A DNA stretch of 64,000 nucleotides. Source: a virus. Shown here one piece after another: positions 9,201 to 64,000 of this stretch; the stretch's first letter is position 1; the number at the start of each line of letters is the position of its first letter. Where the stretch lies: the IMG/VR virus record IMGVR_UViG_3300008113_000012, positions 1 to 64,000 of that record; one strand, given 5' to 3'. The notes under the pieces are model-generated. The model was given only the letters and a program-made list of their open reading frames with translations, was not told the DNA's origin and did no database searches. Made by a program: the position numbers and the translations under genes.

Positions 9201-12200
9201 TACAACAGTTGTACTTACAACAACAATATAGTCGTCAAGTGCCGAATCAAACCCGTCCCACGAATCAGTGAACCAAGGCAAACTATCCCAGCCTCCGCTA
9301 ATGTTAAATCCTAATCCAGTAACATTTACGCCACCGTAATCAATTCCGGTCATTAGCTGTGCTAAATCTTTACCATACATTCCGCTTTCTGGACTGTAGT
9401 AGAAATTAATTCTGTCAGTAGCTGACAAGTGAACTACGTTTTTCTTATAAGTTATCTCAACTACTGCACCAACTTCAGGCGCACTAGTTAATGTTAACAA
9501 TCCAGAGTAGCTAGTGTACCCTCTTGCTGTTGACGTTTTAGTTGATAGTGCATAGTCGTCTCTTAACAAGTCAATGCCGTTTACTCTAACATAACAATCT
9601 TTGTCAATTTTAATTTCAGGACTAAACTTTAACGGCCACTGCAATCTTGATCCAGTGCCTGTAAATGATTCAGTTTCTGTAATTTCAGATATAAAGTAAG
9701 TTTTAGTAATTCTATCAAACTTAATGCTAATCTTATTGGCCCTTACAACTTCACTTTCAATTATTACCGATGCTCTAGCTGCTGTTCCACCGACTGCTAA
9801 TCCGCCTTCAATTGTTATTGTCGGTGCTTTTAAATAACCAGTACCATTTGATACTAGTTGTATTCTATTAACTTTGCCATTGGCAATATATGCGTTAGCA
9901 GTTGCACCTTGTCCGAATCCGCCTTCAATTTTAACAACAGGATTTTCAATGTACCCGGCGCCGCCGTCAACAAGTTCAATACTTTTAACAGTAAAGCCAA
10001 CATGATCGTACCAATGTTTCCAGGGATATGTAAGAAGCTCAGGTGATTCTGATTCAATTTCTCCTAAACTATTAATTTTAACATCAATAGGTGTAACTTT
10101 AAATCTAAGATCAATTGTAGGTAATAAATCAAAATCTGTTACTGAAGTTTGAGAATTATCTAATCCAGTATAAGAACTGACATATTCTCTAACTTGTGTT
10201 CTGTATGGTTTAACTTCTTTAATGTAATCTTCAAAGTTTTCTAAATTATCACTATTATAATTTACTTTTTGTTTTAAGCTACCAACATTATGAGTAGCTT
10301 TTACAAAACTAGTTTTGAACGCCCAGTCAATAAATGTTTGTTCGTGTAGTGCATATCTTACAGATGCAAAGAATAGTTTTAAATAATCTACTCTTAATTC
10401 GTCAACAAGAATTTTGTCTCGTAGTGTATAGATAATTATTTTTAATTCAGCTTCTGCTAGATTGTCATAAATTTCAGAATCAAATAGCGCACTATCAAAA
10501 CCAATAGATCCGTAGTTGTATAAAATATCTGAGAATTGTATTGTTCCGTTATTTCTTCCTATAACTTTATAGTTCTGTGTATAATCAATAGTAACCAGAG
10601 TGTTATATTTTTCTAACAATAACCATCCACCAGTACCGATGTTATTAACTTTTACAATGCTGTTAACTGATACATCAAGTGTGGCAAGCTCATATGTGTT
10701 TTCAACAACGTAATCAATTTTAGTAAACTGATTGTATCCGGTTGCATACCAATCAATGTATTTCCAATATCTAGTAACATCATAAGACTGTCCTTTAGAA
10801 CGATCCCATTTTAATGTATTAGCATTCCAGGTATGTGTACTCCACTTATTAAAAGTATTTGAGTCACTAATAACTAGAACAGTGAACGGTCTTACAATTA
10901 ATCGTGTTTCTAAAATACCTTCTAGATATCCTTCTCCAGAATTTACTACTTCCACACTAGCAACTTGTCCGTTGGCATTTATTTGTGTGCGCAGAATGGC
11001 GTTACGTCCTTGAGTATTAGTCTCAATAGATACATAAGGTGCGTTAACATAACCACGGCCAGCCTTAATTATATCGGCGCCGACAATTCTACCATTTTCA
11101 ATGATAGGTATTAATTGAGCCTGTTCTAATGTAGCTACTCCGACAAATCTTAATTCGGCATCGGTATCAATAGTAATGTCCCATGTACCAGAAGATGCGG
11201 TTGGTAAAGCATCAAATTGTTCAAGGTCTGATAAATCATAATCATCAGCAAGCAATTTAGTAGACAGTACAGAATTAACACGCTCTATATATTGTTTCAA
11301 TGCTTCAACACGATTAACAAACATGCTTTGTCTTGGTCTAAATCCTACACCGTATCGTTGTTTGAAAGGTAGTTTAATGTCAGGCACAACACGATCATTA
11401 TCGTCTTTTCCAATTAAACTGTGTATCCATTTCTTTTCAATTTCTAAAGGTAATACAGTATTAGGATGCTCACTTACAATTTTCCATTGATTGTGTGCAT
11501 TTGTAGTAGTATAATTCATATCTACAGTCCAATATTGAACTGTAAGATTAAAGTTAGTACCGTCTATTAAGTTAGCTGCATTAACAAGGCTAAAAGAATT
11601 AGATCCAGTTAACGCCAAGCAGGTGTATCCTTCAGATATAGGATCTGAAATAAGTCTCGAAATGTTATGTGCAGAAAGAGAACGTCCTATAATGTCAGGA
11701 GCAACTGTAGGGTTCTTAACCCAGTAATAGTAAGTCTTTTGGAATGATTGCGATATCGAATCGTACTTTTTCTTAACGCTGTATGCAGAGTTTCCGTATC
11801 GACTTTTACCAGTAATGTTTAATGAGTCGCCCTTATCAGTGCCCGATAATGCATCCCACTCAGAAGGCTTGTATTTTGTCTCTATCCATTCATAGATATC
11901 AATGCTAGCAGTTTCATAAAGTTTATTCCATGTACTTGATCTATAAACAATATTACCGCACTGGTTATCAATAAACTTAGCTCTAGTTAAATCCCACCAC
12001 AACATTCCTACTTGCGATTTAGTCCAGTTCATACCATCATCATAATTTAATAATGAATTATTAGGAACAGTTCTATCAGTATCAAAGCTGTATGTTGCAG
12101 GGTCAAAGTAAGTTTTGTAACTTAATTCTTGATCAGCCGGGCCTGGAATTTTGCCTTGTATTGGATCAACAACATCAATGTAAGATGTTAATTGATTGTT

Positions 12201-29477: not shown

Positions 29478-30302
29478 ATGACAAAAGTTAATTACTTAAA
29501 CAACAAAGATTTACTAGAAGAAATACACAAAAGCAAAAATACATTCTGCTCATTTACGCAACCAGAGTATCATCGTTATGATTTGATATTGCCAAGTGTA
29601 GATAAAATTAATATTCGAACTATTGCTGAAGCTAAACGAGCGCAGGCAAAACGACAAAGCCAAGAAGCATATGTTGCCCGTAAGGCAGCTGGTGAAAAAG
29701 TTAAACAGGCAGATTGCGAAGTAGATTATAAAAAGATTCAAAAGACTGATGTTGTGTTTCGCATTATGACGTTTGATCATATTCCCCTGAACAATACCCG
29801 TAAAAAGAATCCTAAGACACTTGCTGACCATAGAGATAAAGTTAACTTTCCTCCGTTTCAACACTGGAAGTTTGATGATAAAGACATACTAGTGTGTGTT
29901 GGAAAAAGTCATTGGAAGGGTGATTTAGAAAAAGGCAAGTTTAATAAAGATCACGGGCAAATCACCAATACGCTAGCCCGCATGTATATTAAACTATGCG
30001 AACGCTATGCTACCCGTGGTAATGTTCGTGGCTACACTTACAACGATGAGATGCGTGGGCAGGCTATTCTACAGCTAACACAGATTGGCCTACAATTTGA
30101 CGAATCAAAGTCAGATAATCCATTTGCTTATTTTACTGCCGCAGTTACTAACAGCTTTGTTAGGATTATTAACTTAGAAAAACGTAATCAAAACATCCGT
30201 GATGACTTGTTAGAAATTAATGGCATGAACCCGAGCTATTCTAGAACTGGTTCTGGAGAACATGCTGCCGCTGTTAAGCGTTTCGACGAAACAACTGATT
30301 GA
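29478..30302 (+). CDS. gp55: Late-transcription sigma factor, T4 gp55-like
   Basis: NYLNNKDLL..., ATRGNVRGYTYNDEM, FDESKSDNPFAYFT...NSFVRII..EK; synteny with gp47-gp46. Confidence 0.9.
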   Translation: MTKVNYLNNKDLLEEIHKSKNTFCSFTQPEYHRYDLILPSVDKINIRTIAEAKRAQAKRQSQEAYVARKAAGEKVKQADCEVDYKKIQKTDVVFRIMTFDHIPLNNTRKKNPKTLADHRDKVNFPPFQHWKFDDKDILVCVGKSHWKGDLEKGKFNKDHGQITNTLARMYIKLCERYATRGNVRGYTYNDEMRGQAILQLTQIGLQFDESKSDNPFAYFTAAVTNSFVRIINLEKRNQNIRDDLLEINGMNPSYSRTGSGEHAAAVKRFDETTD

Positions 30303-30327
30303 CCTGTAGCCTTAAAACAACTATAAT
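30299..30327 (+). promoter_or_regulatory. Sigma70-type promoter for gp47-gp46
   Basis: TTGACC (30299-30304), 17-bp spacer, TATAAT (30322-30327). Confidence 0.75.
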
Positions 30328-30347: not shown

Positions 30348-31361
30348 TTGAGTAACCTTTTTAAACGAGTAGCCTGCTTTACTGACATTCATTTTGGATT
30401 GAAGTCAAATAGTCAAGTACACAACCAAGACTGCGAAGATTTTGTAGATTGGTATATTGCTAAAGCCAAGGAGCAAGGATGTGACACAGGTATTTTTATG
30501 GGCGATTGGCATCACAACCGCAATAGTCTTAACATTACTACTATGGACTACTCACTTCGAGCACTGGAGAAACTTGGACAGGCTTTTGATCAGTTTTTCT
30601 TTTTTCCAGGTAATCACGATCTTTATTATAAGGATAAGCGTGATATTCATTCAGTAGAGTTTGGCAAGTATATTCCTGGAATTACTGTAGTTCACGAACC
30701 CACTACTATTGGCGACGTTACCTTATGTCCGTGGCTTGTAGGAGACGAATGGCGATCAGTAGGCAAAAAAGGCGGAAAATATATCTTTGGTCACTTTGAA
30801 TTGCCTAGCTTTTTCATGAACGCAATGATACAGATGCCAGATCACGGTGAAATTAATCTCGACAGCTTTAAAGGTTACGAAATGGGATTTAGTGGACACT
30901 TTCACAAGCGTCAGAGACAGCGTAATATGATCTATATTGGAAATGCATTTCCGCATAACTATGCAGATAATTGGGATGACGATCGTGGCATGATGATCTT
31001 AGAGTGGGACGGTGAGCCTGAATATCATACTTGGCCTATGCAGCCTACATTCCGCACAGTTAAATTAAGCGAACTAATTGACAATGCCGATACTATTATT
31101 AAACCTAATCAGCATCTACGTGTCAGTCTCGATATTGATATTAGTTATGAAGAAGCTAGCTTTATTAAAGAGAAGTTTATGGCAGACTATACCATACGTG
31201 AACTTACGCTAATTCCAGAAAAGAAAGAAATTGAAATCAACACAGACATTGACATTCAAGCGTTTGAAAGTGTAGATCAAATTGTCAGCAATCAATTGAT
31301 TAATATTGAAAGTGATACATTTGACAAAAAAGTACTGTTGGAGATTTATAACAGCTTATGA
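30348..31361 (+). CDS. gp47: Recombination endonuclease subunit (Mre11/SbcD-like)
   Basis: Metallophosphoesterase motifs DIHFG, GDWHH, GNHD, GHF, SGHFH; TTG start with GGAG upstream. Confidence 0.93.
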   Translation: MSNLFKRVACFTDIHFGLKSNSQVHNQDCEDFVDWYIAKAKEQGCDTGIFMGDWHHNRNSLNITTMDYSLRALEKLGQAFDQFFFFPGNHDLYYKDKRDIHSVEFGKYIPGITVVHEPTTIGDVTLCPWLVGDEWRSVGKKGGKYIFGHFELPSFFMNAMIQMPDHGEINLDSFKGYEMGFSGHFHKRQRQRNMIYIGNAFPHNYADNWDDDRGMMILEWDGEPEYHTWPMQPTFRTVKLSELIDNADTIIKPNQHLRVSLDIDISYEEASFIKEKFMADYTIRELTLIPEKKEIEINTDIDIQAFESVDQIVSNQLINIESDTFDKKVLLEIYNSL

Positions 31362-33136
31362 TAAAAATTAAAGATTTAACAGTAAAAAACTTTATGAGTG
31401 TGGGCAATCAAACTCAGGCAGTAGATTTTGGTCGAGAGCAATTAACCCTTGTGTTAGGTGAAAACTTAGATCAAGGCGGGGATGACAGCGGCTCGAGAAA
31501 CGGAACTGGTAAAACTACCATTGTTAATGCACTAAGTTTTGCATTATTCGGCACTGCACTAACTAACATTAAAAAAGACAATCTGATTAATAAGATAAAC
31601 AACAGGAACATGTTAGTTACCTTAACGTTTGAAAAAGACGGTAACAAATATAAGATCGAGCGTGGGCGTAAACCTACAATCATGAAGTTCTATGTTAACA
31701 ATCAAGAGCAGAGTGCAGAGTCTACTGATGATAGTCAGGGTGACATGCGTGAAACGCAAAAGGATATTGACGAGTTGTTAGGAATGAGTCACGATATGTT
31801 TAAACACATTGTAGCTCTTAACACCTATACAGAACCGTTTCTCAGCTTGAAAGCTAATGAGCAACGTGAGATCATTGAGCAGTTGTTGGGCATTACTCTG
31901 TTATCAGAGAAAGCAGACACGCTTAAAGAACAGATTAGACAGACTAAAGAAAATATCTTTCAAGAAACAGCAGATATTGAAGCTGCTAAAAAGTCTAACG
32001 AAAAAATACAAGTAAGTATTACTGGTTTAGAAACTAGGCAATCAGCCTGGTATGCTCAACAGAAGACAGACTGTGCAAAAATTGAACAGAGCATTGCAGA
32101 ACTGCAAAGTGTTGATATTGAAAAAGAGCTTGTGCAACATGCTAAGTTAAAACAATATGACGAACATGCGGCTAAGATTAAAAGCCTTAACAAAGAAAAG
32201 GCCACACTAGAAACTGCTGTTATACAAGCTGACAAGACTGTAGCAAAATATACTAAAGAAGTAGAGCAGTTAAAAAATAAAACTTGTCCTGCGTGTGAGC
32301 AAGGGTTACATAGCCACAAGCACGAAGAAATGACTACCGGTGCTGAAAAGAACTTAGCAGATGCTGTTGCATATTTAGAAAGTATTAGTGATAGCTATGC
32401 AACTGTGCTTCAAGAGTTAGAGACTATAGGTGATATCAACGGCAGACCGCAGACTTACTACGACACTGTCGAAGAAGCATTAAAGCATCAAAACAATCTA
32501 ACAAGTCTAGAAGAAGCATTGACTAGGAGACATACAGAAACTGATCCTTATCAAGAACAAATTGATGATCTTAAGCATACTGCTATGCAAGATATCTCAT
32601 GGGATAATGTTAATTTGTTGAATAGTATGAAGGATCATCAAGAGTTCTTGTTAAAATTACTAACAAACAAAGATAGTTTTATCCGTAAAAAGATCATAGA
32701 TCAGAACCTTGCCTATTTGAATAACAGGCTTACGTACTATCTTGACAAGATGGGATTACCGCATCAAGTTAGTTTCTTAAACGACTTAAACGTTGAGATT
32801 ACACAGTTAGGACAGGATCTAGATTTTGATAACTTGTCTCGTGGCGAACGCAATCGTTTAATCTTAGGATTAAGCTGGGCGTTCCGTGATGTGTGGGAAA
32901 GTCTGTATCAAAGCATTAACTTATTGTTTGTTGACGAGCTTATCGACAACGGATTAGATGCAAACGGTGTAGAAAATGCGTTAGGTGTACTTAAGAAGAT
33001 GGCACGTGAACGTAAGAAGAACATTTTCTTAATCTCACACAAAGATGAATTGATTGGTCGTGTTAATAATGTACTTAAAGTTGTTAAGGAAAACGGCTTT
33101 ACCAGCTATGCAAACGATATTGAGGTTACAGAATAA
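31358..33136 (+). CDS. gp46: Recombination ATPase subunit (Rad50/SbcC-like)
   Basis: KNFMSVG, Walker A NGTGKTT, coiled coil with CPAC zinc hook, signature LSRGE, Walker B LLFVDE, ISH. Confidence 0.95.
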   Translation: MIKIKDLTVKNFMSVGNQTQAVDFGREQLTLVLGENLDQGGDDSGSRNGTGKTTIVNALSFALFGTALTNIKKDNLINKINNRNMLVTLTFEKDGNKYKIERGRKPTIMKFYVNNQEQSAESTDDSQGDMRETQKDIDELLGMSHDMFKHIVALNTYTEPFLSLKANEQREIIEQLLGITLLSEKADTLKEQIRQTKENIFQETADIEAAKKSNEKIQVSITGLETRQSAWYAQQKTDCAKIEQSIAELQSVDIEKELVQHAKLKQYDEHAAKIKSLNKEKATLETAVIQADKTVAKYTKEVEQLKNKTCPACEQGLHSHKHEEMTTGAEKNLADAVAYLESISDSYATVLQELETIGDINGRPQTYYDTVEEALKHQNNLTSLEEALTRRHTETDPYQEQIDDLKHTAMQDISWDNVNLLNSMKDHQEFLLKLLTNKDSFIRKKIIDQNLAYLNNRLTYYLDKMGLPHQVSFLNDLNVEITQLGQDLDFDNLSRGERNRLILGLSWAFRDVWESLYQSINLLFVDELIDNGLDANGVENALGVLKKMARERKKNIFLISHKDELIGRVNNVLKVVKENGFTSYANDIEVTE

Positions 33137-33409
33137 ATGAGCGAGAGTCTGCATGATCAGTTAATGAAAGAGTTTCGAAAGTATTTTGAAAATTATCAAG
33201 ACTGGGCTATGAATCAGACTCACGCAGCAGGCATGAGAACTAGGGCAAACTTATTAGAAATTAGACGACTTTCTAGAGAACTTAGAATAGATATTCTAGA
33301 AACTCGCAGAACGTTTCCAAAAATTAAATCACCAAAATATAGAGAAGCAAAGTTAAAAGAACAGCTCGCTCAAAAACAACAGGCACAAGGCGACAGCGGC
33401 ACTAACTAA
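33137..33409 (+). CDS. Small basic protein resembling histone H1-like Hc1 family
   Basis: HAAGMRTRANLLEIRRLSRELRIDI resembles the Hc1 core AAxxRxRxxxxE/L..K..R; basic tail. Confidence 0.5.
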   Translation: MSESLHDQLMKEFRKYFENYQDWAMNQTHAAGMRTRANLLEIRRLSRELRIDILETRRTFPKIKSPKYREAKLKEQLAQKQQAQGDSGTN

Positions 33410-33413
33410 GTGC

Positions 33414-33851
33414 ATGTCATGGTATTATCAAGGAACTTTAATCGAAGCTTTACCCGAAGAGTGTATTGGCTTTGTTTATTGCATCACTAATAACATAACT
33501 GGTCGCAAATATATAGGCAAGAAATTAGCAAAATTCTCTAAAACAACTTATAAAACAGTAAAACTCAAAAACGGCAACAAGAAGAAAAAGAAGATTCGTT
33601 CTAAAATTGATTCTGACTGGCGTGAATACTATGGCTCAAGCGACCATCTAACAAAAGATATAGAAACTCTAGGCGCAGAGAATTTCAAAAGAGAAATACT
33701 TTACTACTGCACATCAAAGGCTGAATGTTCATACATCGAGGCAAGAGAACAATTTACAAGACGTGTTCTCGAAAGTGACGACTACTACAACGGACACATT
33801 GCTGTTCGTGTACACGGAAGTCATATCAAAGGCAAACAACTAAACGGTTAA
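33414..33851 (+). CDS. Stand-alone GIY-YIG family nuclease (145 aa)
   Basis: GFVYCITN...RKYIGKK, YYGSS, F.REIL, catalytic-type E (YIEAREQ) and YYN; lysine-rich insert; no C-terminal NUMOD/HTH domain visible. Confidence 0.85.
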   Translation: MSWYYQGTLIEALPEECIGFVYCITNNITGRKYIGKKLAKFSKTTYKTVKLKNGNKKKKKIRSKIDSDWREYYGSSDHLTKDIETLGAENFKREILYYCTSKAECSYIEAREQFTRRVLESDDYYNGHIAVRVHGSHIKGKQLNG

Positions 33852-34290
33852 AGCTCGCACAGGCTAATTTCGTGTGCCGAACAGTAGAAACCTGGACTCA
33901 GTGTCGCAGGGATCCGTAGACTCTTGCCGTTAAGAGCACTCAATCAGTATCCTTTACAGGACCAGGATCGCAAAGCTGCCGCGGTTTGATTGTTTTAAGG
34001 AAATAAAGGCAAAAAGAGGGGAAATAAGCCCCACGTTTGCATGTATGTTAGCGTATGCATGTAGGCCGCCGTCATAATAAAGACACAGCTCGAGGTACCG
34101 GATGACCGCCTCTGTAACTGCTGTAACGCTAAGTGGATTGTGCAACTCAGATAATGTTCAATTTTCTTTGCCCGCAAGGGCAAAGTGTGACTGAACAATC
34201 TAGATAATATTTAAACTGCTTCGCAGCAATTAATAAAAGAAAAATAGTTCGAGCTGAAAAGCGAAGAACTGATGTACGCAAGTACATCAT
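33852..34290 (+). ncRNA. Candidate large structured non-coding RNA (unassigned family)
   Basis: Longest intergenic region in a densely coding window, with about 10 hairpins. These include CTTTGCCC-GCAA-GGGCAAAG, TGATGTAC-GCAA-GTACATCA, and a long G-U-rich stem at 34035-34066 that pairs well only as plus-strand RNA. Confidence 0.6.
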
Positions 34291-34292
34291 TA

Positions 34293-34299
34293 ATAAATA
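34293..34299 (+). promoter_or_regulatory. Late promoter ATAAATA (probably leaderless transcript)
   Basis: 7 nt upstream of ATG 34307; no Shine-Dalgarno in between. Confidence 0.6.
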
Positions 34300-34306
34300 C
34301 ACTACT

Positions 34307-35383
34307 ATGAAAATATATGAAATTGTTACTGAAGATCGTGCTAATGAAGGGATAGCTGACATTGCTAAAGGGGCAGCTACGGGTATAGCTAAAGGGGCTA
34401 AATGGGCTAAAGATGCTATTACCGGAACTAAAGCAGGTGCTGAAGTAGCTAAGGATGCTGGAAAAGCAAAGAAAGGTGTTGAAGTAGCTAAAGATGTGGC
34501 AAAAAATGCTGACAAGCTAAAGGTATCTGCAGAAGCAATGTCCAAAGTTAAGTCATTTGGCAGTGCTTTCATGTCTATATTAAGTGCGCTAGGTATAACA
34601 TACTTTGTCTATGAGTACTGGACTGAGATATTAAAACTTGAAGCAGAGTGGACTGAGTATAATAATGCAATTAAATCAAAGACTCAAGTGCCGTCAACTA
34701 ATAAATTTGCTGGCAAAGATTACGAAACAGCACTAAACGAAGCAGAGAACATGCGTTCGGACCTATTAGGTAAAGCAGTTGCTGGATGTTTAACGTCTGC
34801 AGGAATATTTGGAAAAGTAGTGCAAGTGTTTGGAACATTATTTAAAGCACTTCCTGTATTTGGTCCGCTAATAGGATCAACTATTGTAGGCGCAGGCTGG
34901 ATTATATCTAAAATAGAAATTGCACGAGCACCGTTTTTAATTTGGTTAGAAACTACTGACTCTGGTAAAGAGTTTATGAAGAATGTTTTTGTAGTGCTTA
35001 TTCTCGGCGGAACTGGCAAAGTTGCCGCCGATGCGGTTGATGCTCTTATGAAGTTAGCTGATATTGCAGTTGAGTTTATTAACGAAAAGTTTGGAACTAA
35101 CATTAAGAAACCTTCTGATACAGGTTTAGGTACAAAAATTAAACCAGATGCAGAAGCAGAAAAAGAAATAGATGCAAATATAAAAACTATTGACGGTGTT
35201 CCTGCTACTACAGCTGATGGTTACTTAAGATCTGATAGACCGTTCTGGGTACACAATAAAGTCAAATGGGAAATTGAAAAGCAAATGAATAAAGGACAGC
35301 CTAATCCTTTAGATAGTATCCCTAAGAATCCAAAATTAACTTATCCAACTGACTTGTTTAGAAATCTAAACTATGCAGGTTAA
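34307..35383 (+). CDS. Hypothetical late protein with Ala/Lys-rich N-terminus and several hydrophobic helices
   Basis: 358 aa; hydrophobic segments AFMSILSALGITYFVY, GIFGKVVQVFGTLF..IVGAGWII and VFVVLILGG. Confidence 0.7.
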   Translation: MKIYEIVTEDRANEGIADIAKGAATGIAKGAKWAKDAITGTKAGAEVAKDAGKAKKGVEVAKDVAKNADKLKVSAEAMSKVKSFGSAFMSILSALGITYFVYEYWTEILKLEAEWTEYNNAIKSKTQVPSTNKFAGKDYETALNEAENMRSDLLGKAVAGCLTSAGIFGKVVQVFGTLFKALPVFGPLIGSTIVGAGWIISKIEIARAPFLIWLETTDSGKEFMKNVFVVLILGGTGKVAADAVDALMKLADIAVEFINEKFGTNIKKPSDTGLGTKIKPDAEAEKEIDANIKTIDGVPATTADGYLRSDRPFWVHNKVKWEIEKQMNKGQPNPLDSIPKNPKLTYPTDLFRNLNYAG

Positions 35384-45340: not shown

Positions 45341-45434
45341 ATAAATATATTGTATGATTCACACAGGGTGAATTTTATGCGGAAATCCAACCGCGTATGG
45401 CCTAGAACGCCATGTTTCTTAAGGAGAAAATAAA
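45341..45434 (+). promoter_or_regulatory. Late promoter ATAAATA plus multi-hairpin 5' leader
   Basis: ATTCAC/GTGAAT, TATGCGG/CCGCGTA, ATGGC/GCCAT and TTTCT/AGAAA, the last covering the AAGGAG SD. Confidence 0.55.
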
Positions 45435-46145
45435 ATGGGACGTCCTTTACATAAAAAATATTTTGGTAATACAATTACCCCGTTCAACAACTATGCACAA
45501 GGTGGCAACACTGGTGTAGGCGGAGAAGGCGTTGCTAGTGTAACAATCGCAGCACCAATCACGGCAGATCTAACAGGAACAATTACTGTTACATTTTCAG
45601 CTCCTCAAATTTCAGGCGGCATTACTGCAACAGGTACTGCACAAGTTAACGGCAGCAATGACCTAACAGGTATTTTGATTACTAATGCTGGTTCTGGTTA
45701 TACTTCAGTTCCAACATTCACAGTTGCCGACGGTAACGAGACTGCAACTTATACTAGTGGTTCAGGCGGCGTTACAGTTGCATTGACTAGCGGTGCAAGT
45801 GCTCGTCAAAACGCAATTAAATTTGAAGCACAAATTGGTTCAGGTACTGAAGTTACTACAGGTGACATTATCAAACAAGTTGGAAATCACAGATTTAGAG
45901 TTAGAACAAGTGATGGTACAGAAACATGTAAACTAGTTGCTAGTGCAAATCTTGGTGTAAACGAAATGAGCATTACTGCTACTGACTCAGCAACTAACAC
46001 TTATTTTGTAACTAAAATAACTGCCCGCCGTGTACAGCTAACTCAGATTGCAGGCGGTTCAAACTATGTATACGCAACCGGTGAAAGTGCTCCTTGGAAG
46101 TTTGATGCAGCCGCTGGTATCTACGTACAGATTGAAAATCAGTAA
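45435..46145 (+). CDS. Virion structural protein (possible head decoration or neck-associated)
   Basis: Strong SD, T/G/A-rich, ITNAGSGYTSVPT repeat-type module; directly after gp23. Confidence 0.6.
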   Translation: MGRPLHKKYFGNTITPFNNYAQGGNTGVGGEGVASVTIAAPITADLTGTITVTFSAPQISGGITATGTAQVNGSNDLTGILITNAGSGYTSVPTFTVADGNETATYTSGSGGVTVALTSGASARQNAIKFEAQIGSGTEVTTGDIIKQVGNHRFRVRTSDGTETCKLVASANLGVNEMSITATDSATNTYFVTKITARRVQLTQIAGGSNYVYATGESAPWKFDAAAGIYVQIENQ

Positions 46146-58256: not shown

Positions 58257-58277
58257 AAGACATAAGGAAAATTTAAA

Positions 58278-61200
58278 ATGGCAGCAGAATTTAAAATTGG
58301 CAGATTGCGTTACACATGGAAAGGCGCTTGGGGAACAGCAACTTTTTATAATAGAGATGCGGTTGCATCATTTGACGGTAAAACTTATGTTTGTTTAGTA
58401 CCTCACACATCTAGTCAGTTTTACAGCGATTACAATTACGTCGATCCAGTAAACGGTAGTGCTCCTCGCTGGACATTAATGTTAGATGGAACTTCTTGGA
58501 AGGGTGAATGGCAACCTCTTACATCATATACACTAGGTGCTATTGTTCTTTATGGCGGAAGTTTATATAAGCGTATTGTTAATGCACCTAGCGGCCCAAC
58601 ATTTAATACTGCTAATTGGGAAATTTACATCGATGTAAACAGTAATTGGGCAGGAGAGTGGATCACAGCTACGCTATACAAATTAGGTGATATTGTAAAA
58701 TATGGCGCAACTACTTACAGATGTATAGTTCAACATACTTCTGCACTCCTTCTTGAAACTAATTTAGCAAATTGGGAAATTGTAGAAGCTGGTATCGAAT
58801 TTAAAGGCACATGGAATCCTAGCGCAGTGCGCTATAAAGTTAACGACATAGTTAAATACGGCCCAGACTTGTGGATTGCTAACGTAGGCCATACTTCAGC
58901 ACTGCCATTTAATGCCAGCACTGACATTGAGAATACATTACTGTCATGGCGCCTATGGCTTCCAGGCGCAGAGTATACAACATCGTGGAGTTCGACTACA
59001 ATTTATCAACCGGGCGAAGTTGTAATGTATGGAGGTTATTCATACGTTAACTTAACTATTAATAATCAAAACATTTTACCAACTGCTCCGGGTAGTGATT
59101 GGGAAGTAGTCACTACTGGATATAGTTTTCAAAATGATTGGTTAGTAGGAACAGCATATAAAATTGGTTCAGTTGTTAGACGCGGCGGCAATTTGTTCGA
59201 AGCAATAATAGATACTCAAGGTGAAGATCCTACAGAGGCCACTGTTACCGTAAATTATACCGCTGCCGGCAGTAGCGGAACTACATTAGTAGTTAATGAT
59301 ACAACTGGAATATACCCAGGCATGATAATTTCTGGAGACGGATTCGGATTAGGACAATTTGTTACGGAAGTAGTCGACGGAACTACACTAGCTATTAGCC
59401 TCGCACCAGACAATACAATTATTGACAATTACCCATTATCGCTAACAGGAGTTAACGGAACAGACTGGAAATTAATTACACCTGGAATTAGATGGAGAAA
59501 TAGATGGCTAGCTGGCAGCACTTACGTAGTTGGTGATATTGCAATATGGAATAATGCAACATATAAGTGTGTTAAGACAAATGTAGCAAGTACACCTAAT
59601 AGACCAGATAATAATATAACAAATGATATTTGGATTCTACATCTCCCACATGACCAGTACAACGTTTTAAATCTACCTGGAGATATGGTTGTTAATACAG
59701 ATGGTACTAATGAAGCATTGTCTATCGGCCCTGAAGGTTTCTTATTAAAATCAATCAACGGTATTCCAACATGGTCAAACGTATTCCAAACCCCAGCAGT
59801 ATATTATGTCACTCCAGACGGAACTGATTTACCAGGCAGTGGCAGGACTTGGGACAACCCGTACAAGTCTATAAAATATGCATGTGATCAGATTAATACA
59901 GGTATTTTTAATCTTTTTGCTAAAACTAGATTATTAAATAACAAAGAATTTTTAGTAGAAGAAGTAGTGCAATGGCAAATCTATCAAGTTGCTCAAGGTA
60001 ATGCACCCTTTACTATTAATGTATTTCCAGACGAATTTAAAACTAGACGAGATACTGGGTATCTAATTGATGCAATTATATTTGATTTATCTCGCGGAGG
60101 TAATAGTCAAACTGTTGCATTTGTTTTATCATTTTTTGATAGAGAATCAGATAACAAGTTTGTCACTGACGAAGTAGCAGACGAAATTGATACATTTATT
60201 GCAACTTTAAATCATTTATTTGATATTATTCTTGATGTATTAAACGGGGTAACAGTCACTCCTTCATACATTGATCTTAACAACGTTGTTACAGATCTAG
60301 TACAAGTTATTGGCGCTCCAGTCGAAGTATTAGTCATTAATCTTGTAAATGATTATAGATCAATAATCATTACACCACTAGTTGATGCTAACACTAATAA
60401 CGTTCCTCCTGAAAATCAAGGATTAACATCAACCGTTATGGTTAAAACTGGCGCTTTCTTTGAAGACCTTCCTATTGTTGTTCCATCAAATACTGCATTA
60501 GTTGGCGATGAGTTACGAGGAACAGTAGTTTCTCCAAAAGTAACAATTAACACAATTATTACTAGAACTTTGGCCAGCACTAACGTTTTTGTAACAGTAT
60601 CTACAGTAGGAATGGTTGAAGGAATGGGAGTACAATTTGTATCATCAAATCCTGTAGACGACAAAACTACAATTTTTGGCGGAGTGACTGCAGGACAGAC
60701 ATATTATATTGTTGGAGAAATTACAGCTACTCAATTTCAAGTTAGTGAAACAGTAGGCGGTTCTCCAATAACAGTTACAAATAATATAGGTGTTATGAAA
60801 ATTTACGGAGGCGATGCACTAAAAGATATGTTTTATGTGCAAAACGCTACAGGTATTCGCAATATGACACTTACAGGATTGTTAGGTACGTTGACAGATG
60901 TAAATGATTTTAATACACGTAGACCAACAGGCGGCGCATATGTTAGTTTAGATCCAGGTTCTGGACCAGATGATACTAGTGCATGGATTATTAAACGAAG
61001 TCCTTATATACAGAACGTAACAACATTTGGCATTGGCTGTGTTGGGTTGAAAGTAGATGGAACACTTCACTTAGGTGGAAATAAATCAGTAGTTGCTAAC
61101 GATTTTACGCAAATTTTAAGCGACGGCATAGGTGCGTGGATCACTGGACCAGATGCGTTATCAGAACTTGTTTCAGTATTCAGTTACTATAACTATGCTG

Positions 61201-64000
61201 GATATTTTGCTGAAGATGGAGGACGTATCCGTGCTACTAACGGTAACAGCTCATATGGAACATTTGGTGTTATTGCTGAAGGATTTAATGAAGACGAAGA
61301 CCCTATTTTGGGAAATATTTTCAATAGGTACTTTGAAGCAACAGCTGAACCGTTTAGCTCATTAGGTTCAAACGCAGAAATTTTAAAATTACAATATAGT
61401 CACGCAGGAGAAATGTATGTAGTTCCCACTACTAATCTGTTAAACTATAGTAATTTATTTACTAACTGGTCGAGTGACGGTGGTGTTACATTAATCCAAT
61501 CTATAGTTTCACCGTTTGGAATATCTAACGCATGGTTATCTATCGGAAATACGTCAGCAGCAGATGCTAATTTATTTTATCAAGATATTACGATAACTCC
61601 ATCTGGGGCACAATACACAGAAGTTGAAGGTACAAACGTACCTGGTGAAGGTTCAGGATCAGGCGCTAAATTTAATATTACAGTAACTAGTACTGAATAT
61701 CTTATTGCCGTATTTGATGGAGGTACTGGTTATGTTGCTACTAACAAGATTAGAATCCTTGGCTCACAGTTAGGAGGAGTTGACGGAGAAAATGATCTAG
61801 TCATTACTGTTACTGGACTTCTTGGTACTGCCATTTCAACCGTAAGCATTACGCCAACGGGCGAATATCCAAACACTGTGCAAGTAGGAAGCATACAACC
61901 TTACACATTTAGTATCTACTGTAAAAAGGGTACTGCGACATTATTTGAAGTAATAGCAACCTTTAGCGGATATTCTACAGCATCAAGTGGAATTACTTTT
62001 AATTTTAATACATTAGAAGTAACGCCTTTTGCATTAACAGGCGGCCTTACACCTACAGTGTATTCTGCTATTCCTGTATCTGGAGCCGAAGGATGGTATA
62101 GATTGTCTTTTAGATTCAACGATGTATCTGCACTTAACAGCTCGTTAAGAATAACCATATATCCAAGATCAAGAAATGGTAGTAGTAGCTATACATTATT
62201 ATATGGATCACAATTAGAACTTGGAAATACTATAGGATTCTATCTAGATACTACTACAAATAAATTTACTTCATATGCAAATTTTGAAATTACAGGCGCA
62301 GGCACTGGAGTTAGTGTAGTAGGAGACGAAATTAGAACTAAGAGTGTATATCAGACTCGATTGTTAGAAGTTAACTCAGTTACTGGCGGTCAAAACTATT
62401 TGGTATCTACTAACAATGGACAAGCTGGTACTTTTGCTACCTTCACTATTGCGGCTTCTGACCAAGCTGGAGAAAAAGAATACTTAGGAATGCGACTATT
62501 CATTAATAGCGGAACAGGAGCAGGACAATACGGTACTATTTCATTCTTTGACACACTACTTAAAACAGCGTCGATAGTAAAAGAATCTTTTATTCCAGTT
62601 GAAATCACATCAACAGAGACTACAACAGATACGTTTACACTAAGCGGTCCAAGTGATGTAAATTCTCTATATGTTGGACAAATAGTTCAATTTGTTCCTA
62701 CTACATACAATGTATCTGTAGGTATTGTTTCTCAAAGTAGTGTTAGCGCAACAGCAACAACAGGTGGCACTGTAAATACTATCACAGTTACTAGTACTTC
62801 AAGCCTAACAGTAGATATGCCTATAGTATTTACAGGAGTAACTTTTGGTGGAGTAACTTCAAATTTTACATACTATGTGTTGACAATTATTGACGATACT
62901 AACATTCAAGTGTCTACTTTAATAGGCGGCGCAGTAGTATTATTAACAACAGTTTCACCTGGGTTAATGCAATTAAATTATCCTAATAACACCAGTTACC
63001 TGCAAGGTATTACTACAAATATGCAAGTAAATTTACCAATTTACTTTACAGGAAATCCGTTATCATCTATAGTTGCAGGAACTACTTATTTTATTAATGA
63101 GATTTATGACGGAACTAATTTTACGATCTCTCCCTCATTAATTACACTAACTGCAACCAATACTACAACAGTTAGCAATACAATAACAGTGAATGACACT
63201 ACTGGGTTAAAGTCATTAACTCCAGTAATATTTACAGGAACTTCATTTGGAGGAGTGTTAGCTAATACCAAGTATTATATTAATCATGTAGTTGATGCAA
63301 GTAAAATTACTATCTCTGCATCTGTAACAACAACTACAATTACTTCTACAAAGATAACAAGTAATTTAATCACAGCAACATCTACAACAGGATTTATAAT
63401 TGGAAACCCAATTGTATTTACAGGTACAACATTTGGAGGTATTGTCAATGATCAAACTTATTTTATATTGTATGTTGCAAACAGCACAAAGTTTACCGTA
63501 AGTAATACCTCAGTTGCATTGAATATTGCAGTATCTGAAACAACAGTATCTACAGATCCAACACGACCAAATGAACTTACTGTAGCATCGTCTAACAACC
63601 TAACGCCGCTAAATCCAATTGTATTTACAGGTACAACATTTGGAGGTATAACTGCAAACATAACATATTTTGTAAACAGAATTATTGATGCACAACATAT
63701 AACTGTTTCACCTAGTATTATTAGTGCAACGGCAACAGAAACTGAAGCAGTTTCTAATCTTATTACAGTAAATGATACCACTGGCTTTGTTCCTAATAAT
63801 CCTGTAATATTTTCAGGTGATACTTTTGGTGGTCTTGTATCTGGAACCGTGTATTATGTTTCGGCTGTAAACTCCATAACATCATTTACTGTTAGTACAG
63901 TTCCTTCAGGTTCGGCAGTTACATTAACTGATGGATTTGGTATTATAACAGTAAGAACTACTTCTGCAAATGTAACATTAACTTCAGCAACAGGTTCTTT
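58278..64000 (+). CDS. Giant multidomain adhesin/tail-fibre protein (>1900 aa, runs off the window): CBM5/12-like repeats, beta-helix, tandem ~65-70-aa repeats
   Basis: Not in the track (no stop). Start and several internal segments were translated by hand, not every codon: MAAEFKIGRLRYTWKGAW..., repeated W....Y..GD(I/V)V.YG...Y, YYVTPDGTD..WDNPYKSIKYA, RSPYIQNVTTFG, repeated PIVFTGTTFGG....TYY. Confidence 0.8.
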   Translation, partial: MAAEFKIGRLRYTWKGAWGTATFYNRDAVASFDGKTYVCLVPHTSSQFYSDYNYVDPVNGSAPRWTLMLDGTSWKGEWQPLTSYTLGAIVLYGGSLYKRIVNAPSGPTFNTANWEIYIDVNSNWAGEWITATLYKLGDIVKYGATTYRCIVQHTSALLLETNLANWEIVEAGIEFKGTWNPSAVRYKVNDIVKYGPDLWIANVGHTSALPFNASTDIENTLLSWRLWLPGAEYTTSWSSTTIYQPGEVVMYGGYSYVNLTINNQNILPTAPGSDWEVVTTGYSFQNDWLVGTAYKIGSVVRRGGNLFEAIIDTQGEDPTEATVTVNYTAAGSSGTTLVVNDTTGIYPGMIISGDGFGLGQFVTEVVDGTTLAISLAPDNTIIDNYPLSLTGVNGTDWKLITPGIRWRNRWLAGSTYVVGDIAIWNNATYKCVKTNVASTPNRPDNNITNDIWILHLPHDQYNVLNLPGDMVVNTDGTNEALSIGPEGFLLKSINGIPTWSNVFQTPAVYYVTPDGTDLPGSGRTWDNPYKSIKYACDQINTGIFNLFAKTRLLNNKEFLVEEVVQWQIYQVAQGNAPFTINVFPDEFKTRRDTGYLIDAIIFDLSRGGNSQTVAFVLSFFDRESDNKFVTDEVADEIDTFIATLNHLFDIILDVLNGVTVTPSYIDLNNVVTDLVQVIGAPVEVLVINLVNDYRSIIITPLVDANTNNVPPENQGLTSTVMVKTGAFFEDLPIVVPSNTALVGDELRGTVVSPKVTINTIITRTLASTNVFVTVSTVGMVEGMGVQFVSSNPVDDKTTIFGGVTAGQTYYIVGEITATQFQVSETVGGSPITVTNNIGVMKIYGGDALKDMFYVQNATGIRNMTLTGLLGTLTDVNDFNTRRPTGGAYVSLDPGSGPDDTSAWIIKRSPYIQNVTTFGIGCVGLKVDGTLHLGGNKSVVANDFTQILSDGIGAWITGPDALSELVSVFSYYNYAGYFAEDGGRIRATNGNSSYGTFGVIAEGFNEDEDPILGNIFNRYFEATAEPFSSLGSNAEILKLQYSHAGEMYVVPTTNLLNYSNLFTNWSSDGGVTLIQSIVSPFGISNAWLSIGNTSAADANLFYQDITITPSGAQYTEVEGTNVPGEGSGSGAKFNITVTSTEYLIAVFDGGTGYVATNKIRILGSQLGGVDGENDLVITVTGLLGTAISTVSITPTGEYPNTVQVGSIQPYTFSIYCKKGTATLFEVIATFSGYSTASSGITFNFNTLEVTPFALTGGLTPTVYSAIPVSGAEGWYRLSFRFNDVSALNSSLRITIYPRSRNGSSSYTLLYGSQLELGNTIGFYLDTTTNKFTSYANFEITGAGTGVSVVGDEIRTKSVYQTRLLEVNSVTGGQNYLVSTNNGQAGTFATFTIAASDQAGEKEYLGMRLFINSGTGAGQYGTISFFDTLLKTASIVKESFIPVEITSTETTTDTFTLSGPSDVNSLYVGQIVQFVPTTYNVSVGIVSQSSVSATATTGGTVNTITVTSTSSLTVDMPIVFTGVTFGGVTSNFTYYVLTIIDDTNIQVSTLIGGAVVLLTTVSPGLMQLNYPNNTSYLQGITTNMQVNLPIYFTGNPLSSIVAGTTYFINEIYDGTNFTISPSLITLTATNTTTVSNTITVNDTTGLKSLTPVIFTGTSFGGVLANTKYYINHVVDASKITISASVTTTTITSTKITSNLITATSTTGFIIGNPIVFTGTTFGGIVNDQTYFILYVANSTKFTVSNTSVALNIAVSETTVSTDPTRPNELTVASSNNLTPLNPIVFTGTTFGGITANITYFVNRIIDAQHITVSPSIISATATETEAVSNLITVNDTTGFVPNNPVIFSGDTFGGLVSGTVYYVSAVNSITSFTVSTVPSGSAVTLTDGFGIITVRTTSANVTLTSATGS
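63408..63649 (+). repeat. 35-bp exact direct repeat within the tandem protein repeats
   Basis: CCAATTGTATTTACAGGTACAACATTTGGAGGTAT at 63408-63442 and 63615-63649 (207-bp period). Confidence 0.85.

What the first reader, a model, noticed from the sequence alone, without database searches (positions are those of the whole stretch)
33414..34290. Minimal GIY-YIG nuclease followed directly by a ~440-nt highly structured non-coding RNA candidate: possible phage nuclease-RNA system
Seen: the longest non-coding stretch of the window starts right at the stop codon of a 145-aa GIY-YIG gene. It is visibly more GC-rich than other intergenic DNA and folds by eye into consecutive and nested helices: GCACA/TGTGC (33857-33877); CCTG-GAC/GTC-G-CAGG (33891-33910); CTCTT/AAGAG (33921-33936); CAATCA/TGATTG enclosing ATCCT/AGGAT (33941-33992); GGGG/CCCC (34018-34032); a ~14-bp stem with many G-U pairs (34035-34066); ACAGC/GCTGT enclosing GAGG/CCTC (34085-34124); GTTCA/TGAAC enclosing CTTTGCCC-GCAA-GGGCAAAG (34156-34196); AGTTC/GAACT with a purine-rich GA internal loop; TGATGTAC-GCAA-GTACATCA. 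The G-U pairs and GNRA loops favour a plus-strand RNA co-transcribed with the nuclease. Known: GIY-YIG homing enzymes such as I-TevI use C-terminal DNA-binding modules, and compact nucleases paired with structured RNA exist (IscB/omega-HEARO, TnpB/reRNA). Inference: this protein shows no specificity domain but has a very basic insert (KTTYKTVKLKNGNKKKKKIRSK) that could bind the RNA, giving an RNP that may be RNA-guided or RNA-regulated. A structured replication origin or an independent phage ncRNA are alternatives. I cannot assign it to tRNA, tmRNA, RNase P, SRP or group I/II intron by eye.
Basis: partly seen in the sequence, partly recalled or inferred. Interest (0 to 1): 0.85.

Follow-up and report, generated by a model that had tools for sequence, protein, structure and literature searches.

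The report
Large twin-box phage RNA, nuclease neighbour
The gene-free gap behind a small nuclease gene of this uncultured freshwater T4-like phage encodes a real, doubly knotted RNA of about 440 bases. Only its first third was catalogued (the orphan motif Polynucleobacter-1), it carries one 7-letter word twice, and the nuclease looks like a fixed neighbour, not the RNA's partner.

Summary
Window 33852-34290 encodes a plus-strand structured RNA that starts at the stop codon of a 145-aa GIY-YIG gene. Its first 144 nt are a full-length match to Rfam RF01718 (Polynucleobacter-1, 83.5 bits). Weinberg et al. (2010) already noted that this motif follows genes like PSSM2_218. I show that PSSM2_218 is the homologue of this nuclease.

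The RNA-guided or RNP reading is not supported. Four Burkholderiales genomes carry the same architecture, three with RF01718 hits over Rfam's cut-off and one weak. None has a SegE-type GIY-YIG gene anywhere. The nuclease family is common in phages that lack the RNA. No guide-like segment was seen.

The strangest feature is two direct-repeat boxes, ACUC-X7 and AUCU-X7, on either side of a hairpin. The 7-nt words are identical in 132 of 132 phage RNAs and in the bacterial copies, although the word itself changes. No third partner was found.

Most likely this is an autonomous non-coding RNA, transcribed in phages as the 3' end of the early gp47-gp46-GIY operon. What it does remains unknown. Earlier follow-ups of this scan described the same "twin-box" RNA on other genomes.

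The parts
30299..30327 (+). sigma-70-type promoter-like site (TTGACC-17-TATAAT, 11 of 12) ahead of gp47; likely start of the transcription unit that ends in the RNA
   Evidence: it is the only strong promoter-like site on the + strand between 30000 and 34300. This is a consensus match only, not shown to be active.
30348..33136 (+). gp47-like (Metallophos) and gp46-like (AAA_23/SMC_N) recombination nuclease genes, upstream members of the operon
   Evidence: conserved upstream of the GIY gene in most related loci
33137..33409 (+). 90-aa basic ORF (weak Hc1-like match, below the Pfam cut-off); present only in the closest relatives
33414..33851 (+). 145-aa stand-alone GIY-YIG nuclease domain (Pfam SegE_GIY-YIG, PHROG 447); homologue of P-SSM2 PSSM2_218
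33852..33995 (+). RNA domain 1 = Rfam RF01718 Polynucleobacter-1 (helices P1-P6)
   Evidence: 83.5 bits, cut-off 37, model 1-141 of 141; covariation
33996..34135 (+). RNA central domain: linker AAGGC-AAAAGA, hairpin P7, long hairpin P8 (34035-34066) and P10 (34085-34124), with two pseudoknots. PK1 pairs the P8 loop 34048-34053 with 34127-34132; P9 pairs 34071-34075 with 34102-34106. Invariant core GGUACCGG..ACCGCC.
   Evidence: 96.5% of cells paired against 29-51% in slid controls, 26 of 34 pairs with compensatory changes, 0 of 500 shuffles as good. Also.
34144..34155 (+). box 1: N-ACUC-X7 (X7 = AGAUAAU, 34149-34155)
34166..34185 (+). hairpin P12 (CUUUGCCC-GCAA-GGGCAAAG) between the boxes, followed by the invariant GUGUGAC; conserved in sequence within this RNA type and replaced by other hairpins in types II/III and in bacteria
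34197..34208 (+). box 2: N-AUCU-X7 (X7 = AGAUAAU, 34202-34208), always identical to the X7 of box 1
34216..34226 (+). small hairpin P13 (CUGC-UUC-GCAG), followed by a variable A-rich linker
   Evidence: weaker support; absent in some relatives
34247..34268 (+). P14: stem, GA, GC, GNRA-type loop, GC, GAA, stem (tandem G.A internal loop)
   Evidence: many distinct complementary stem sequences; also present in bacterial copies
34271..34288 (+). P15 terminal hairpin (GAUGUAC-GCAA-GUACAUC); probable 3' end of the RNA, but no U tract follows
   Evidence: 96-99% paired, 3-59 compensated sequences per pair; no canonical terminator found
34290..34297 (+). AATAAATA, similar to T4-type late promoters, conserved as TAAATA after P15 in close relatives; would drive the next gene (34307-35383) separately
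   Evidence: seen in the sequence and in the alignment; its role as a promoter is inferred from knowledge of T4-like late promoters

Best explanation
Window 33852-34290 encodes an autonomous structured non-coding RNA of about 440 nt, the 'twin-box RNA'. Its 5' third is the orphan Rfam motif Polynucleobacter-1.

Shown:
- The fold is conserved and compensated on the plus strand. It has about 15 helices and two pseudoknots.
- The family exists in at least three phage versions with different 5' domains. It also exists in bacterial genomic islands.
- In phages it always follows the small GIY-YIG gene. In bacteria it stands alone, beside a DUF6641 gene.

Inferred:
- In the phage it is made as the untranslated 3' end of the early gp47-gp46-GIY transcript, from the promoter-like site at 30299.
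- It ends at hairpin P15, and the next gene has its own late promoter.
- The nuclease is a conserved co-transcribed neighbour, not a subunit.

Mechanism I commit to, at low odds: the RNA acts in trans as a folded scaffold. Its working part is the module box1-hairpin-box2, where the same 7-nt word is displayed twice for one partner or process that requires the two copies to be identical. My rough split for what enforces that identity:
- about 25%: two equivalent sites for one dimeric or repeated partner
- about 15%: direct non-Watson-Crick contact of the two strands in parallel register
- about 10%: a copy-and-re-anneal step, that is take-off and landing of a polymerase
- about 10%: a DNA-level identity requirement
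- the rest unknown
For: RNA identity and extent:
- RF01718 full-length hit.
- The whole 455 nt are conserved downstream of GIY in 54 of 80 loci by blastn, and by nhmmer in every locus with at least 500 nt of downstream sequence.

Structure:
- RNAalifold gives 37 of 62 pairs with compensatory changes.
- Central domain with both pseudoknots: 96.5% paired against 29-51% in slid controls, 26 of 34 pairs compensated, 0 of 500 shuffles as good.
- P1, P4, P6, P8 and P15 are 93-98% paired with many double changes. P14 stems covary.
- Strand: many G-U pairs, for example 41 of 42 at the top of P8. MFE z-score is -3.8 on plus and -2.4 on minus.

Place at the end of the operon:
- A promoter-like site lies only ahead of gp47.
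- In many relatives the RNA is followed directly by the convergent 76-aa gene.
- The 4 loci with an extra ORF between GIY and the RNA have it on the same strand, overlapping the GIY stop.
- RNA-library contigs from four studies cover GIY and the RNA, and some bridge the stop codon (weak).

Autonomy from the nuclease:
- RF01718 hits in 4 of 151 Burkholderiales genomes, 3 over Rfam's cut-off and 1 weak.
- Those copies carry the boxes, P14 and P15, and none of the four genomes has PF19835.
- GIY homologues without the RNA occur in 495 phage records, including P-SSM2 and Melnitz.

Twin boxes:
- Identical at all varying positions in 132 of 132 RNAs.
- 7 of 8 possible haplotypes occur, with roughly 8-23 parsimony changes per site.
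- The next-best mutual-information partner is far weaker.
- The same rule holds with other words in types II and III (ACAUGAA) and in bacteria (AGCGAAA, GGCGAAA, AGCGAUG).
Against: - No transcript ends are mapped. The RNA-library evidence is contigs only and could include DNA.
- No intrinsic terminator follows P15.
- In phages the RNA and GIY are never apart, and insertions between them are rare (4 of 69). The basic beta-hairpin of the protein is longest in the lineage that carries the RNA. A phage-specific functional link therefore cannot be excluded.
- All phage loci share one synteny. The co-occurrence may reflect a single ancestral event and neither proves nor disproves a link.
There is no complementary copy within 3 kb, no enrichment elsewhere in the 108-kb record, no co-varying GIY residue, and no reverse transcriptase in the carrier genomes.
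- The bacterial sample is small: 4 genomes, 3 with usable context.
Confidence: 0.7

Rival explanations
1. Nuclease-RNA particle: the GIY-YIG protein binds the RNA through its basic beta-hairpin, and the RNA guides, regulates or inhibits cleavage.
For: - Strict adjacency in phages: all 69 RNA-first loci with the RNA and enough upstream DNA.
- Co-transcription is likely.
- GIY is more conserved than gp46.
- Residues 40-66 form a confident, long, lysine-rich beta-hairpin. It is 6-11 residues longer than in homologues without the RNA.
- HEARO/IscB, found in the same 2010 survey, sets a precedent.
Against: - The RNA exists in four bacterial genomes with no SegE-type GIY-YIG gene.
- The protein family is widespread without the RNA.
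- No hypervariable guide-like segment of 16 nt or more. The only fast-changing words are 7 nt long, have no complementary site nearby, and do not co-vary with any GIY residue.
- An ORF can sit between the gene and the RNA.
Confidence: 0.1
2. Template or strand-transfer RNA: the two identical words are take-off and landing (alignment) sites. A strand copied from one box re-anneals at the other, as in telomerase RNA or the DRT2 non-coding RNA, giving tandem copies of the 52-59-nt unit.
For: - An identity rule that accepts any sequence and shows only two-way covariation is what re-annealing of a copied strand predicts.
- The word flanks a hairpin inside a pseudoknotted RNA. In DRT2 a template flanked by two ACA motifs sits in a pseudoknotted RNA, and its authors compare this to the telomerase alignment region (PMC12039810).
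- One bacterial copy (G051) lies beside an integrase and an SNF2+Mrr gene.
Against: - No RVT_1 reverse transcriptase in the phage record or in the four bacterial carrier genomes, while the control genomes do give hits.
- Unit length is not a multiple of 3, and both strands of the unit carry stop codons, so there is no neo-like ORF (my reading).
- No back-joined contigs in the RNA runs (contigs only).
Confidence: 0.07
3. Purely cis-acting 3' UTR: the fold only terminates the early operon or protects it from 3' exonucleases, or it is a 5' leader that regulates the next gene, as Weinberg et al. tentatively classed the motif.
For: - Its position at the operon end.
- The terminal hairpin P15.
- The 2010 survey scored the motif 'cis-reg: probably'.
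Against: - 440 nt with two pseudoknots and invariant single-stranded blocks is far more than a terminator or a protective hairpin needs.
- The downstream gene is not conserved and is often convergent, so it is not a 5' leader.
- Bacterial copies stand in their own intergenic region, diverging from DUF6641, with different downstream genes.
Confidence: 0.1
4. DNA-level element: the boxes are directly repeated sites whose 7-bp cores must match, like the overlap regions of tyrosine recombinase sites or slipped-strand repeats around a palindrome, or the region is a structured replication origin.
For: - A 7-bp identity that ignores the sequence itself resembles the overlap rule of tyrosine recombinases (from general knowledge).
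- A tyrosine integrase lies about 0.9 kb from the RNA in one bacterial locus.
Against: - Helix covariation keeps G-U pairs, which would be C-A on the other strand.
- GNRA loops and tandem G.A motifs are RNA features.
- No integrase lies near the phage loci, and no inverted arms flank the boxes.
- Excision would give a circle of only 52-59 bp.
Confidence: 0.05

Closest known systems
Polynucleobacter-1 RNA motif (Rfam RF01718; Weinberg et al. 2010, Genome Biol 11:R31, PMC2864571)
   Same: Window 33852-33995 is a full-length member (83.5 bits). The paper's supplement already says most examples lie downstream of genes like P-SSM2 PSSM2_218. That gene is the homologue of this GIY-YIG gene. Freshwater and Burkholderiales distribution also match.
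   Different: The Rfam model covers only 141 nt. Here it is the first third of a ~440-nt RNA with two pseudoknots, twin boxes and the P14/P15 module, and none of these is in Rfam 15. The paper found no example in any sequenced phage and did not recognise the gene as a nuclease. Other phage versions (types II and III) replace this domain altogether.
HEARO / IscB omega-RNA and TnpB reRNA (nuclease-associated guide RNAs)
   Same: A large structured RNA directly next to a small nuclease gene, found by comparative genomics.
   Different: Those RNAs carry a long variable guide at one end and move with a transposon. Here there is no guide-like segment, the genomic position is fixed, the RNA occurs without the nuclease, and the nuclease occurs without the RNA.
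Large ornate bacterial and phage RNAs of unknown function (GOLLD, ROOL, OLE, raiA)
   Same: Size, complexity, pseudoknots, presence in phages and mobile regions, and unknown biochemical role.
   Different: No sequence or model match to any of them. None is known, to my knowledge, to carry two co-varying identical words.
DRT2 non-coding RNA / telomerase RNA (template flanked by a repeated alignment motif)
   Same: A pseudoknotted RNA in which a short identical sequence brackets an internal segment (PMC12039810).
   Different: No reverse transcriptase in the carrier genomes. The unit is 52-59 nt and is not an open reading frame. No product has been detected.
I-TevI / SegE-type GIY-YIG homing endonucleases
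   Same: The protein matches Pfam SegE_GIY-YIG over the whole catalytic domain. The best, though weak, fold matches are the I-TevI catalytic domain 1LN0/1MK0.
   Different: It has no C-terminal DNA-binding domain. It sits at a fixed syntenic position, is more conserved than gp46, and belongs to PHROG 447 of about 145-aa stand-alone proteins, mislabelled 'NAD synthetase'. It therefore does not behave like a mobile homing gene.

Membership tests
Rfam RF01718 Polynucleobacter-1 | Covariance-model score above the curated gathering cut-off (37 bits) over the full model | tested here: met
   83.5 bits, model positions 1-141 of 141, window 33852-33995 +
Rfam RF01718 Polynucleobacter-1 | Consensus helices kept through compensatory changes | tested here: met
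   P1, P4 and P6 are 96% paired with 17-56 doubly changed sequences at several pairs; P3 compensated in alignment A1
Rfam RF01718 Polynucleobacter-1 | Gene context reported by the authors: downstream of PSSM2_218-like genes | tested here: met
   PSSM2_218 aligns with the window's GIY protein at 39% identity, E 1e-24
RNA-guided nuclease systems (IscB/HEARO, TnpB/reRNA type) | RNA and nuclease are obligately linked: neither occurs without the other | tested here: not met
   The RNA occurs in 4 bacterial genomes without PF19835. The nuclease family occurs in 495 phage records, with no RNA in the examples checked.
RNA-guided nuclease systems (IscB/HEARO, TnpB/reRNA type) | A variable guide segment of about 16 nt or more next to a conserved scaffold, matching a target | tested here: not met
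   The only concertedly variable words are 7 nt long. No complementary site at a consistent place within 3 kb or enriched in the 108-kb record.
RNA-guided nuclease systems (IscB/HEARO, TnpB/reRNA type) | Physical binding of the RNA by the nuclease | not testable with these tools
   Needs co-purification. No protein-RNA prediction was available.
GIY-YIG nuclease superfamily (SegE / I-TevI branch) | Profile match to the catalytic domain with GIY and YIG motifs and conserved Arg, Glu and Asn | tested here: met
   PF19835 E 2.8e-33. GFVY...KYIG, R93, E109/E112 and N126 are invariant in 24 homologues. Which of these residues is catalytic is inferred, not tested.
GIY-YIG nuclease superfamily (SegE / I-TevI branch) | GIY-YIG alpha/beta fold | tested here: inconclusive
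   Model pLDDT 81.6. The top Foldseek hits are I-TevI catalytic domains, but at E 0.13-0.2, prob 0.9-0.96 and TM 0.39-0.60.
Homing endonuclease genes (mobile seg-like genes) | Sporadic distribution and variable insertion sites among related phages, plus a DNA-binding domain | tested here: not met
   Same syntenic place in about 150 loci, 70-96% identity, no extra domain
Group I/II introns, RNase P, tmRNA, SRP, 6S, hammerhead and other known ribozymes | Rfam covariance-model match | tested here: not met
   No hit even at E up to 10 in 33700-34400 apart from RF01718; no tRNA or tmRNA
DRT2/telomerase-like template RNAs | A reverse transcriptase encoded with the RNA | tested here: not met
   No PF00078 in the phage record (a 29%-complete fragment) or in 4 carrier bacterial genomes; the control genomes gave hits

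The most novel reading that the evidence does not exclude
The twin-box module is the working centre of a new kind of RNA machine. The two always-identical 7-nt words would be either take-off and landing sites for a strand that is copied and re-annealed, giving repeat synthesis or strand transfer without a classical reverse transcriptase, or two strands that pair with each other base-for-base in parallel register. Either would be a mechanism or structural motif not yet described in natural bacterial or phage RNAs.
Probability: 0.12. Interest if true: 0.9.

Novelty: new variant of a known kind. Interest (0 to 1): 0.6.

Why it matters
Polynucleobacter-1 has been an orphan Rfam motif since 2010, classed as a possible cis-regulator. 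This locus and its roughly 150 relatives show it is only one interchangeable 5' domain of a much larger pseudoknotted RNA shared by abundant freshwater T4-like phages and by islands in small Burkholderiales genomes. That puts it among the few large bacterial and phage RNAs whose complexity suggests a ribozyme or RNP-like job.

The twin boxes give a sharp experimental handle. Two 7-nt words changed many times yet stayed identical in all 132 phage RNAs and in the four bacterial copies examined. This rule is not explained by ordinary base pairing within the RNA. The result also removes an attractive but unsupported idea, an RNA-guided GIY-YIG nuclease. Finally, it corrects the widespread 'NAD synthetase' label on this nuclease family.

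Tried and rejected
- blastn of the 455 nt against 50,697 isolate phage records: no match. The RNA is so far known only from uncultured phages.
- Rfam on Melnitz and P-SSM2 loci: nothing. nhmmer with the RNA profile: nothing there either.
- Rfam on type II and III 5' domains: no family.
- The pattern scan of genome contigs with GGTACCGGNNNACCGCCNC was a poor choice. It returned only chance hits in GC-rich genomes, none with the RNA.
- Four of the 80 listed RNA-pattern hits in viral contigs (L107, L115, L120, L149) are chance matches without the RNA.
- Third strand for the boxes: no RNA column with comparable mutual information, no reverse-complement copy at a consistent place within 3 kb, and no enrichment in the 108-kb record.
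- Co-evolution of GIY residues with box states: maximum MI 0.29 of 1.0.
- Mini-ORF or translational bypass between the boxes: rejected. Box spacing is 52-59 nt with all residues mod 3.
- Hammerhead reading of P14 (UGAUGAG...CGAAA in some variants): rejected. The flanks pair with each other, the motif is not conserved, and there is no Rfam hit.
- Box C/D, group I P1-like and palindrome-dimer readings of the boxes fail in type III or in the bacterial copies (my reading).
- The count of structure pairs on the MAFFT alignment of the 3' domain (A3) gave only 68.7% paired. P14 and P15 are mis-registered there, and the -1 slide scores higher. I rely instead on the 132-sequence alignment and on anchor-based counts.
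- RNA-library contigs give no cover beyond 34239 or over 33168-33368. No conclusion can be drawn from that.
- Other DUF6641 copies (9 loci) have no twin-box RNA beside them.
- The ORFs inserted between GIY and the RNA in L078, L026 and L031 have no Pfam family.
Full report
**What is there.** The window is part of a 108-kb IMG/VR record of an uncultured T4-like phage. Runs that hold the stretch are mostly lake and freshwater metagenomes. A sigma-70-type promoter-like site at 30299-30327 (TTGACC-17-TATAAT) precedes four plus-strand genes:
- gp47-like
- gp46-like
- a 90-aa basic ORF
- a 145-aa ORF at 33414-33851

The 145-aa ORF matches Pfam SegE_GIY-YIG over the whole profile (E 2.8e-33) and PHROG 447. 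From its stop codon to the next ATG at 34307 lie 455 nt without a conserved ORF. This stretch has 43.5% GC, against 37.0% for the window and 36.6% for other gaps. It folds better than shuffled sequence on the plus strand (z -3.8) than on the minus strand (z -2.4).

**Known part.** Rfam places a full-length Polynucleobacter-1 RNA (RF01718; 83.5 bits, cut-off 37) at 33852-33995. The remaining 310 nt match nothing, even at E up to 10. Only one paper in the library mentions the motif, Weinberg et al. 2010 (PMC2864571). Its supplement says three things:
- Most examples lie downstream of genes of family GOS11034, possibly homologous to PSSM2_218 of cyanophage P-SSM2.
- No example was found in a sequenced phage.
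- The 3' half is not always detected.

PSSM2_218 is a 145-aa protein annotated 'NAD synthetase'. It aligns with the window's GIY-YIG protein at 39% identity, E 1e-24. The gene-RNA association was therefore recorded in 2010, but neither the nuclease nature of the gene nor the true size of the RNA was recognised.

**Extent and structure of the RNA.** I retrieved 80 viral loci through the protein and 119 through an RNA-only pattern, 80 of them listed as L084-L163. Every protein-retrieved locus with at least 500 nt downstream of GIY has the RNA. In most loci the RNA starts at the first base after the stop codon.

A 49-sequence alignment shows conservation and compensation over about 440 nt. For the central domain I counted a structure I named myself on a structure-blind MAFFT alignment of 42 sequences that share under 90% identity:
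- 96.5% of cells are paired, against 29-51% when partners are slid by 1-3 columns.
- 26 of 34 pairs show changes on both sides.
- 0 of 500 shuffles reach the observed values.

That structure includes two pseudoknots. PK1 pairs the loop of the long hairpin P8 (34048-34053) with 34127-34132. P9 (34071-34075 with 34102-34106) crosses P10.

In a 132-sequence alignment P1, P4, P6, P8 and P15 are 93-98% paired with many double changes. P14 has the layout stem, GA, GC, GNRA, GC, GAA, stem, and shows many different complementary stems. P12 is an almost invariant 8-bp hairpin. Frequent G-U pairs fix the strand as plus.

**Twin boxes.** Two direct repeats flank P12: N-ACUC-X7 at 34144-34155 and N-AUCU-X7 at 34197-34208. 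Across 132 non-identical RNAs the three variable positions of X7 are identical in both boxes in 132 of 132 cases:

| Position pair (nt from RNA start, 33852 = 1) | States (box 1 / box 2) |
|---|---|
| 298 / 351 | A/A 61, G/G 71 |
| 302 / 355 | A/A 84, G/G 48 |
| 304 / 357 | U/U 112, A/A 19, G/G 1 |
| 299 / 352 | G/G 131, C/C 1 |

- Mutual information equals the column entropy. The next-best partner is far lower, 0.26 against 1.0 for position 298.
- Seven of the eight possible haplotypes exist and are always matched. That requires at least six coordinated double changes. Parsimony on a tree built without the boxes gives 23, 8 and 8 changes.
- The register is parallel (constant offset), not antiparallel.

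I found none of the following:
- a complementary copy nearby
- enrichment elsewhere in the phage record
- a co-varying GIY residue
- a conserved reading frame (spacing 52-59 nt)

The rule survives large divergence. Type III phage RNAs have ACUC-ACAUGAA and AUCU-ACAUGAA. Bacterial copies have AGCGAAA, GGCGAAA or AGCGAUG, again the same word twice. This is unexplained.

**Family and autonomy.** Behind the same GIY gene there are at least three RNA types with different 5' domains. All share the core GGUACCGG..ACCGCC, the box-hairpin-box module, P14 and P15. Types II and III have no Rfam match.

RF01718 also hits 4 of 151 sampled Burkholderiales genomes, all 1.7-1.9 Mb; three hits are over Rfam's cut-off and one is weak. 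Those loci carry the whole ~470-nt architecture. They have no SegE-type GIY-YIG gene anywhere in the genome and no reverse transcriptase. In all three loci with usable context the RNA diverges from a DUF6641 gene, and one locus lies beside an integrase and an SNF2-Mrr gene.

Conversely, GIY homologues occur in 495 phage records. The examples checked (P-SSM2 and Melnitz) have no RNA.

In phages the pair is never separated. Of the 80 listed RNA-first loci, 7 had too little upstream DNA and 4 were chance pattern matches without the RNA. In the remaining 69, GIY lies directly upstream in 65 and behind one same-strand ORF in 4. All these loci share one synteny, so the count may reflect a single ancestral arrangement.

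**Expression context.**
- No promoter-like site lies between gp47 and the RNA, and no canonical terminator follows it.
- In many relatives the RNA abuts the 3' end of a convergent gene.
- After P15, close relatives conserve TAAATA, which resembles a T4-type late promoter, in front of the next gene.
- Contigs from four metatranscriptome studies cover GIY and the RNA, and some bridge the stop codon. This is weak evidence, because contigs cannot show ends and DNA carry-over is possible.

**The protein.** The family is very conserved: 80% mean identity, more than gp46 in the same loci. The AlphaFold model (pLDDT 81.6) puts the lysine-rich 'insert' in a long beta-hairpin. The best fold matches, though weak, are I-TevI catalytic domains. 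The hairpin belongs to the Pfam profile, but it is 6-11 residues longer here than in homologues without the RNA.

**Verdict.** The best reading is an autonomous large non-coding RNA that phages express as the tail of an early operon. Its function is unknown, and its twin-box module is the most informative lead. After my own analysis I read earlier notes of this scan. Several follow-ups on other genomes describe the same 'twin-box / extended Polynucleobacter-1' RNA, so this is a further member of something the scan has already found.

Noticed in passing
window 45357-45437 (+): Full-length match to Rfam RF02980 'freshwater-2' RNA (72.2 bits, cut-off 49.9), a second catalogued orphan motif in the same phage.
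   Followed up: no
phage records, e.g. AY939844.2 PSSM2_218; PHROG 447: The ~145-aa SegE-type GIY-YIG family is annotated 'NAD synthetase' in many phage records and in PHROGs. The Pfam match and the conserved motifs show this label is wrong.
   Followed up: partly
L326 10873-11340 (G051), L327 1466-1966 (G004), G093:C1:649832-650215: In all three bacterial loci with usable context the RNA diverges from a DUF6641 gene. DUF6641 has several copies per genome (16 places in 8 of 151 Burkholderiales genomes), and the other copies lack the RNA.
   Followed up: partly
L326 8730-16257 (G051:C4): The bacterial RNA copy sits in an island with a short tyrosine integrase (212 aa) and a 1331-aa SNF2 helicase fused to an Mrr-type restriction nuclease domain.
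   Followed up: no
L078 3426-4451, L026 3426-4274, L031 3443-4453: In a few phages a 280-340-aa ORF with no Pfam family is inserted exactly between the GIY stop and the RNA, overlapping the stop codon. In L078 a radical-SAM gene precedes GIY.
   Followed up: partly
window 33534-33611 (GIY residues 41-66): The lysine-rich insert is modelled with high confidence as a long beta-hairpin arm. It is 11 residues shorter in the P-SSM2 homologue and 6 shorter in Melnitz, both of which lack the RNA.
   Followed up: partly
bacterial RNA in L326 (minus strand, about 10272-10428): In the G051 bacterial copy the box word AGCGAAA occurs four times within the RNA: both boxes, the core ACAGCGAAACCGCC, and the 3' side of P14. 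This may be chance or part of the puzzle.
   Followed up: no
window 58257-63457: Several long stretches lack ORFs of 75 aa or more (up to 1.3 kb). They are probably clusters of very small genes and were not examined.
   Followed up: no
window 34149-34155 and 34202-34208: In every phage version the word reads NNA-URA, that is positions 4-6 are UAA or UGA. Bacterial words do not follow this, and no conserved reading frame fits. I treat it as coincidence.
   Followed up: partly
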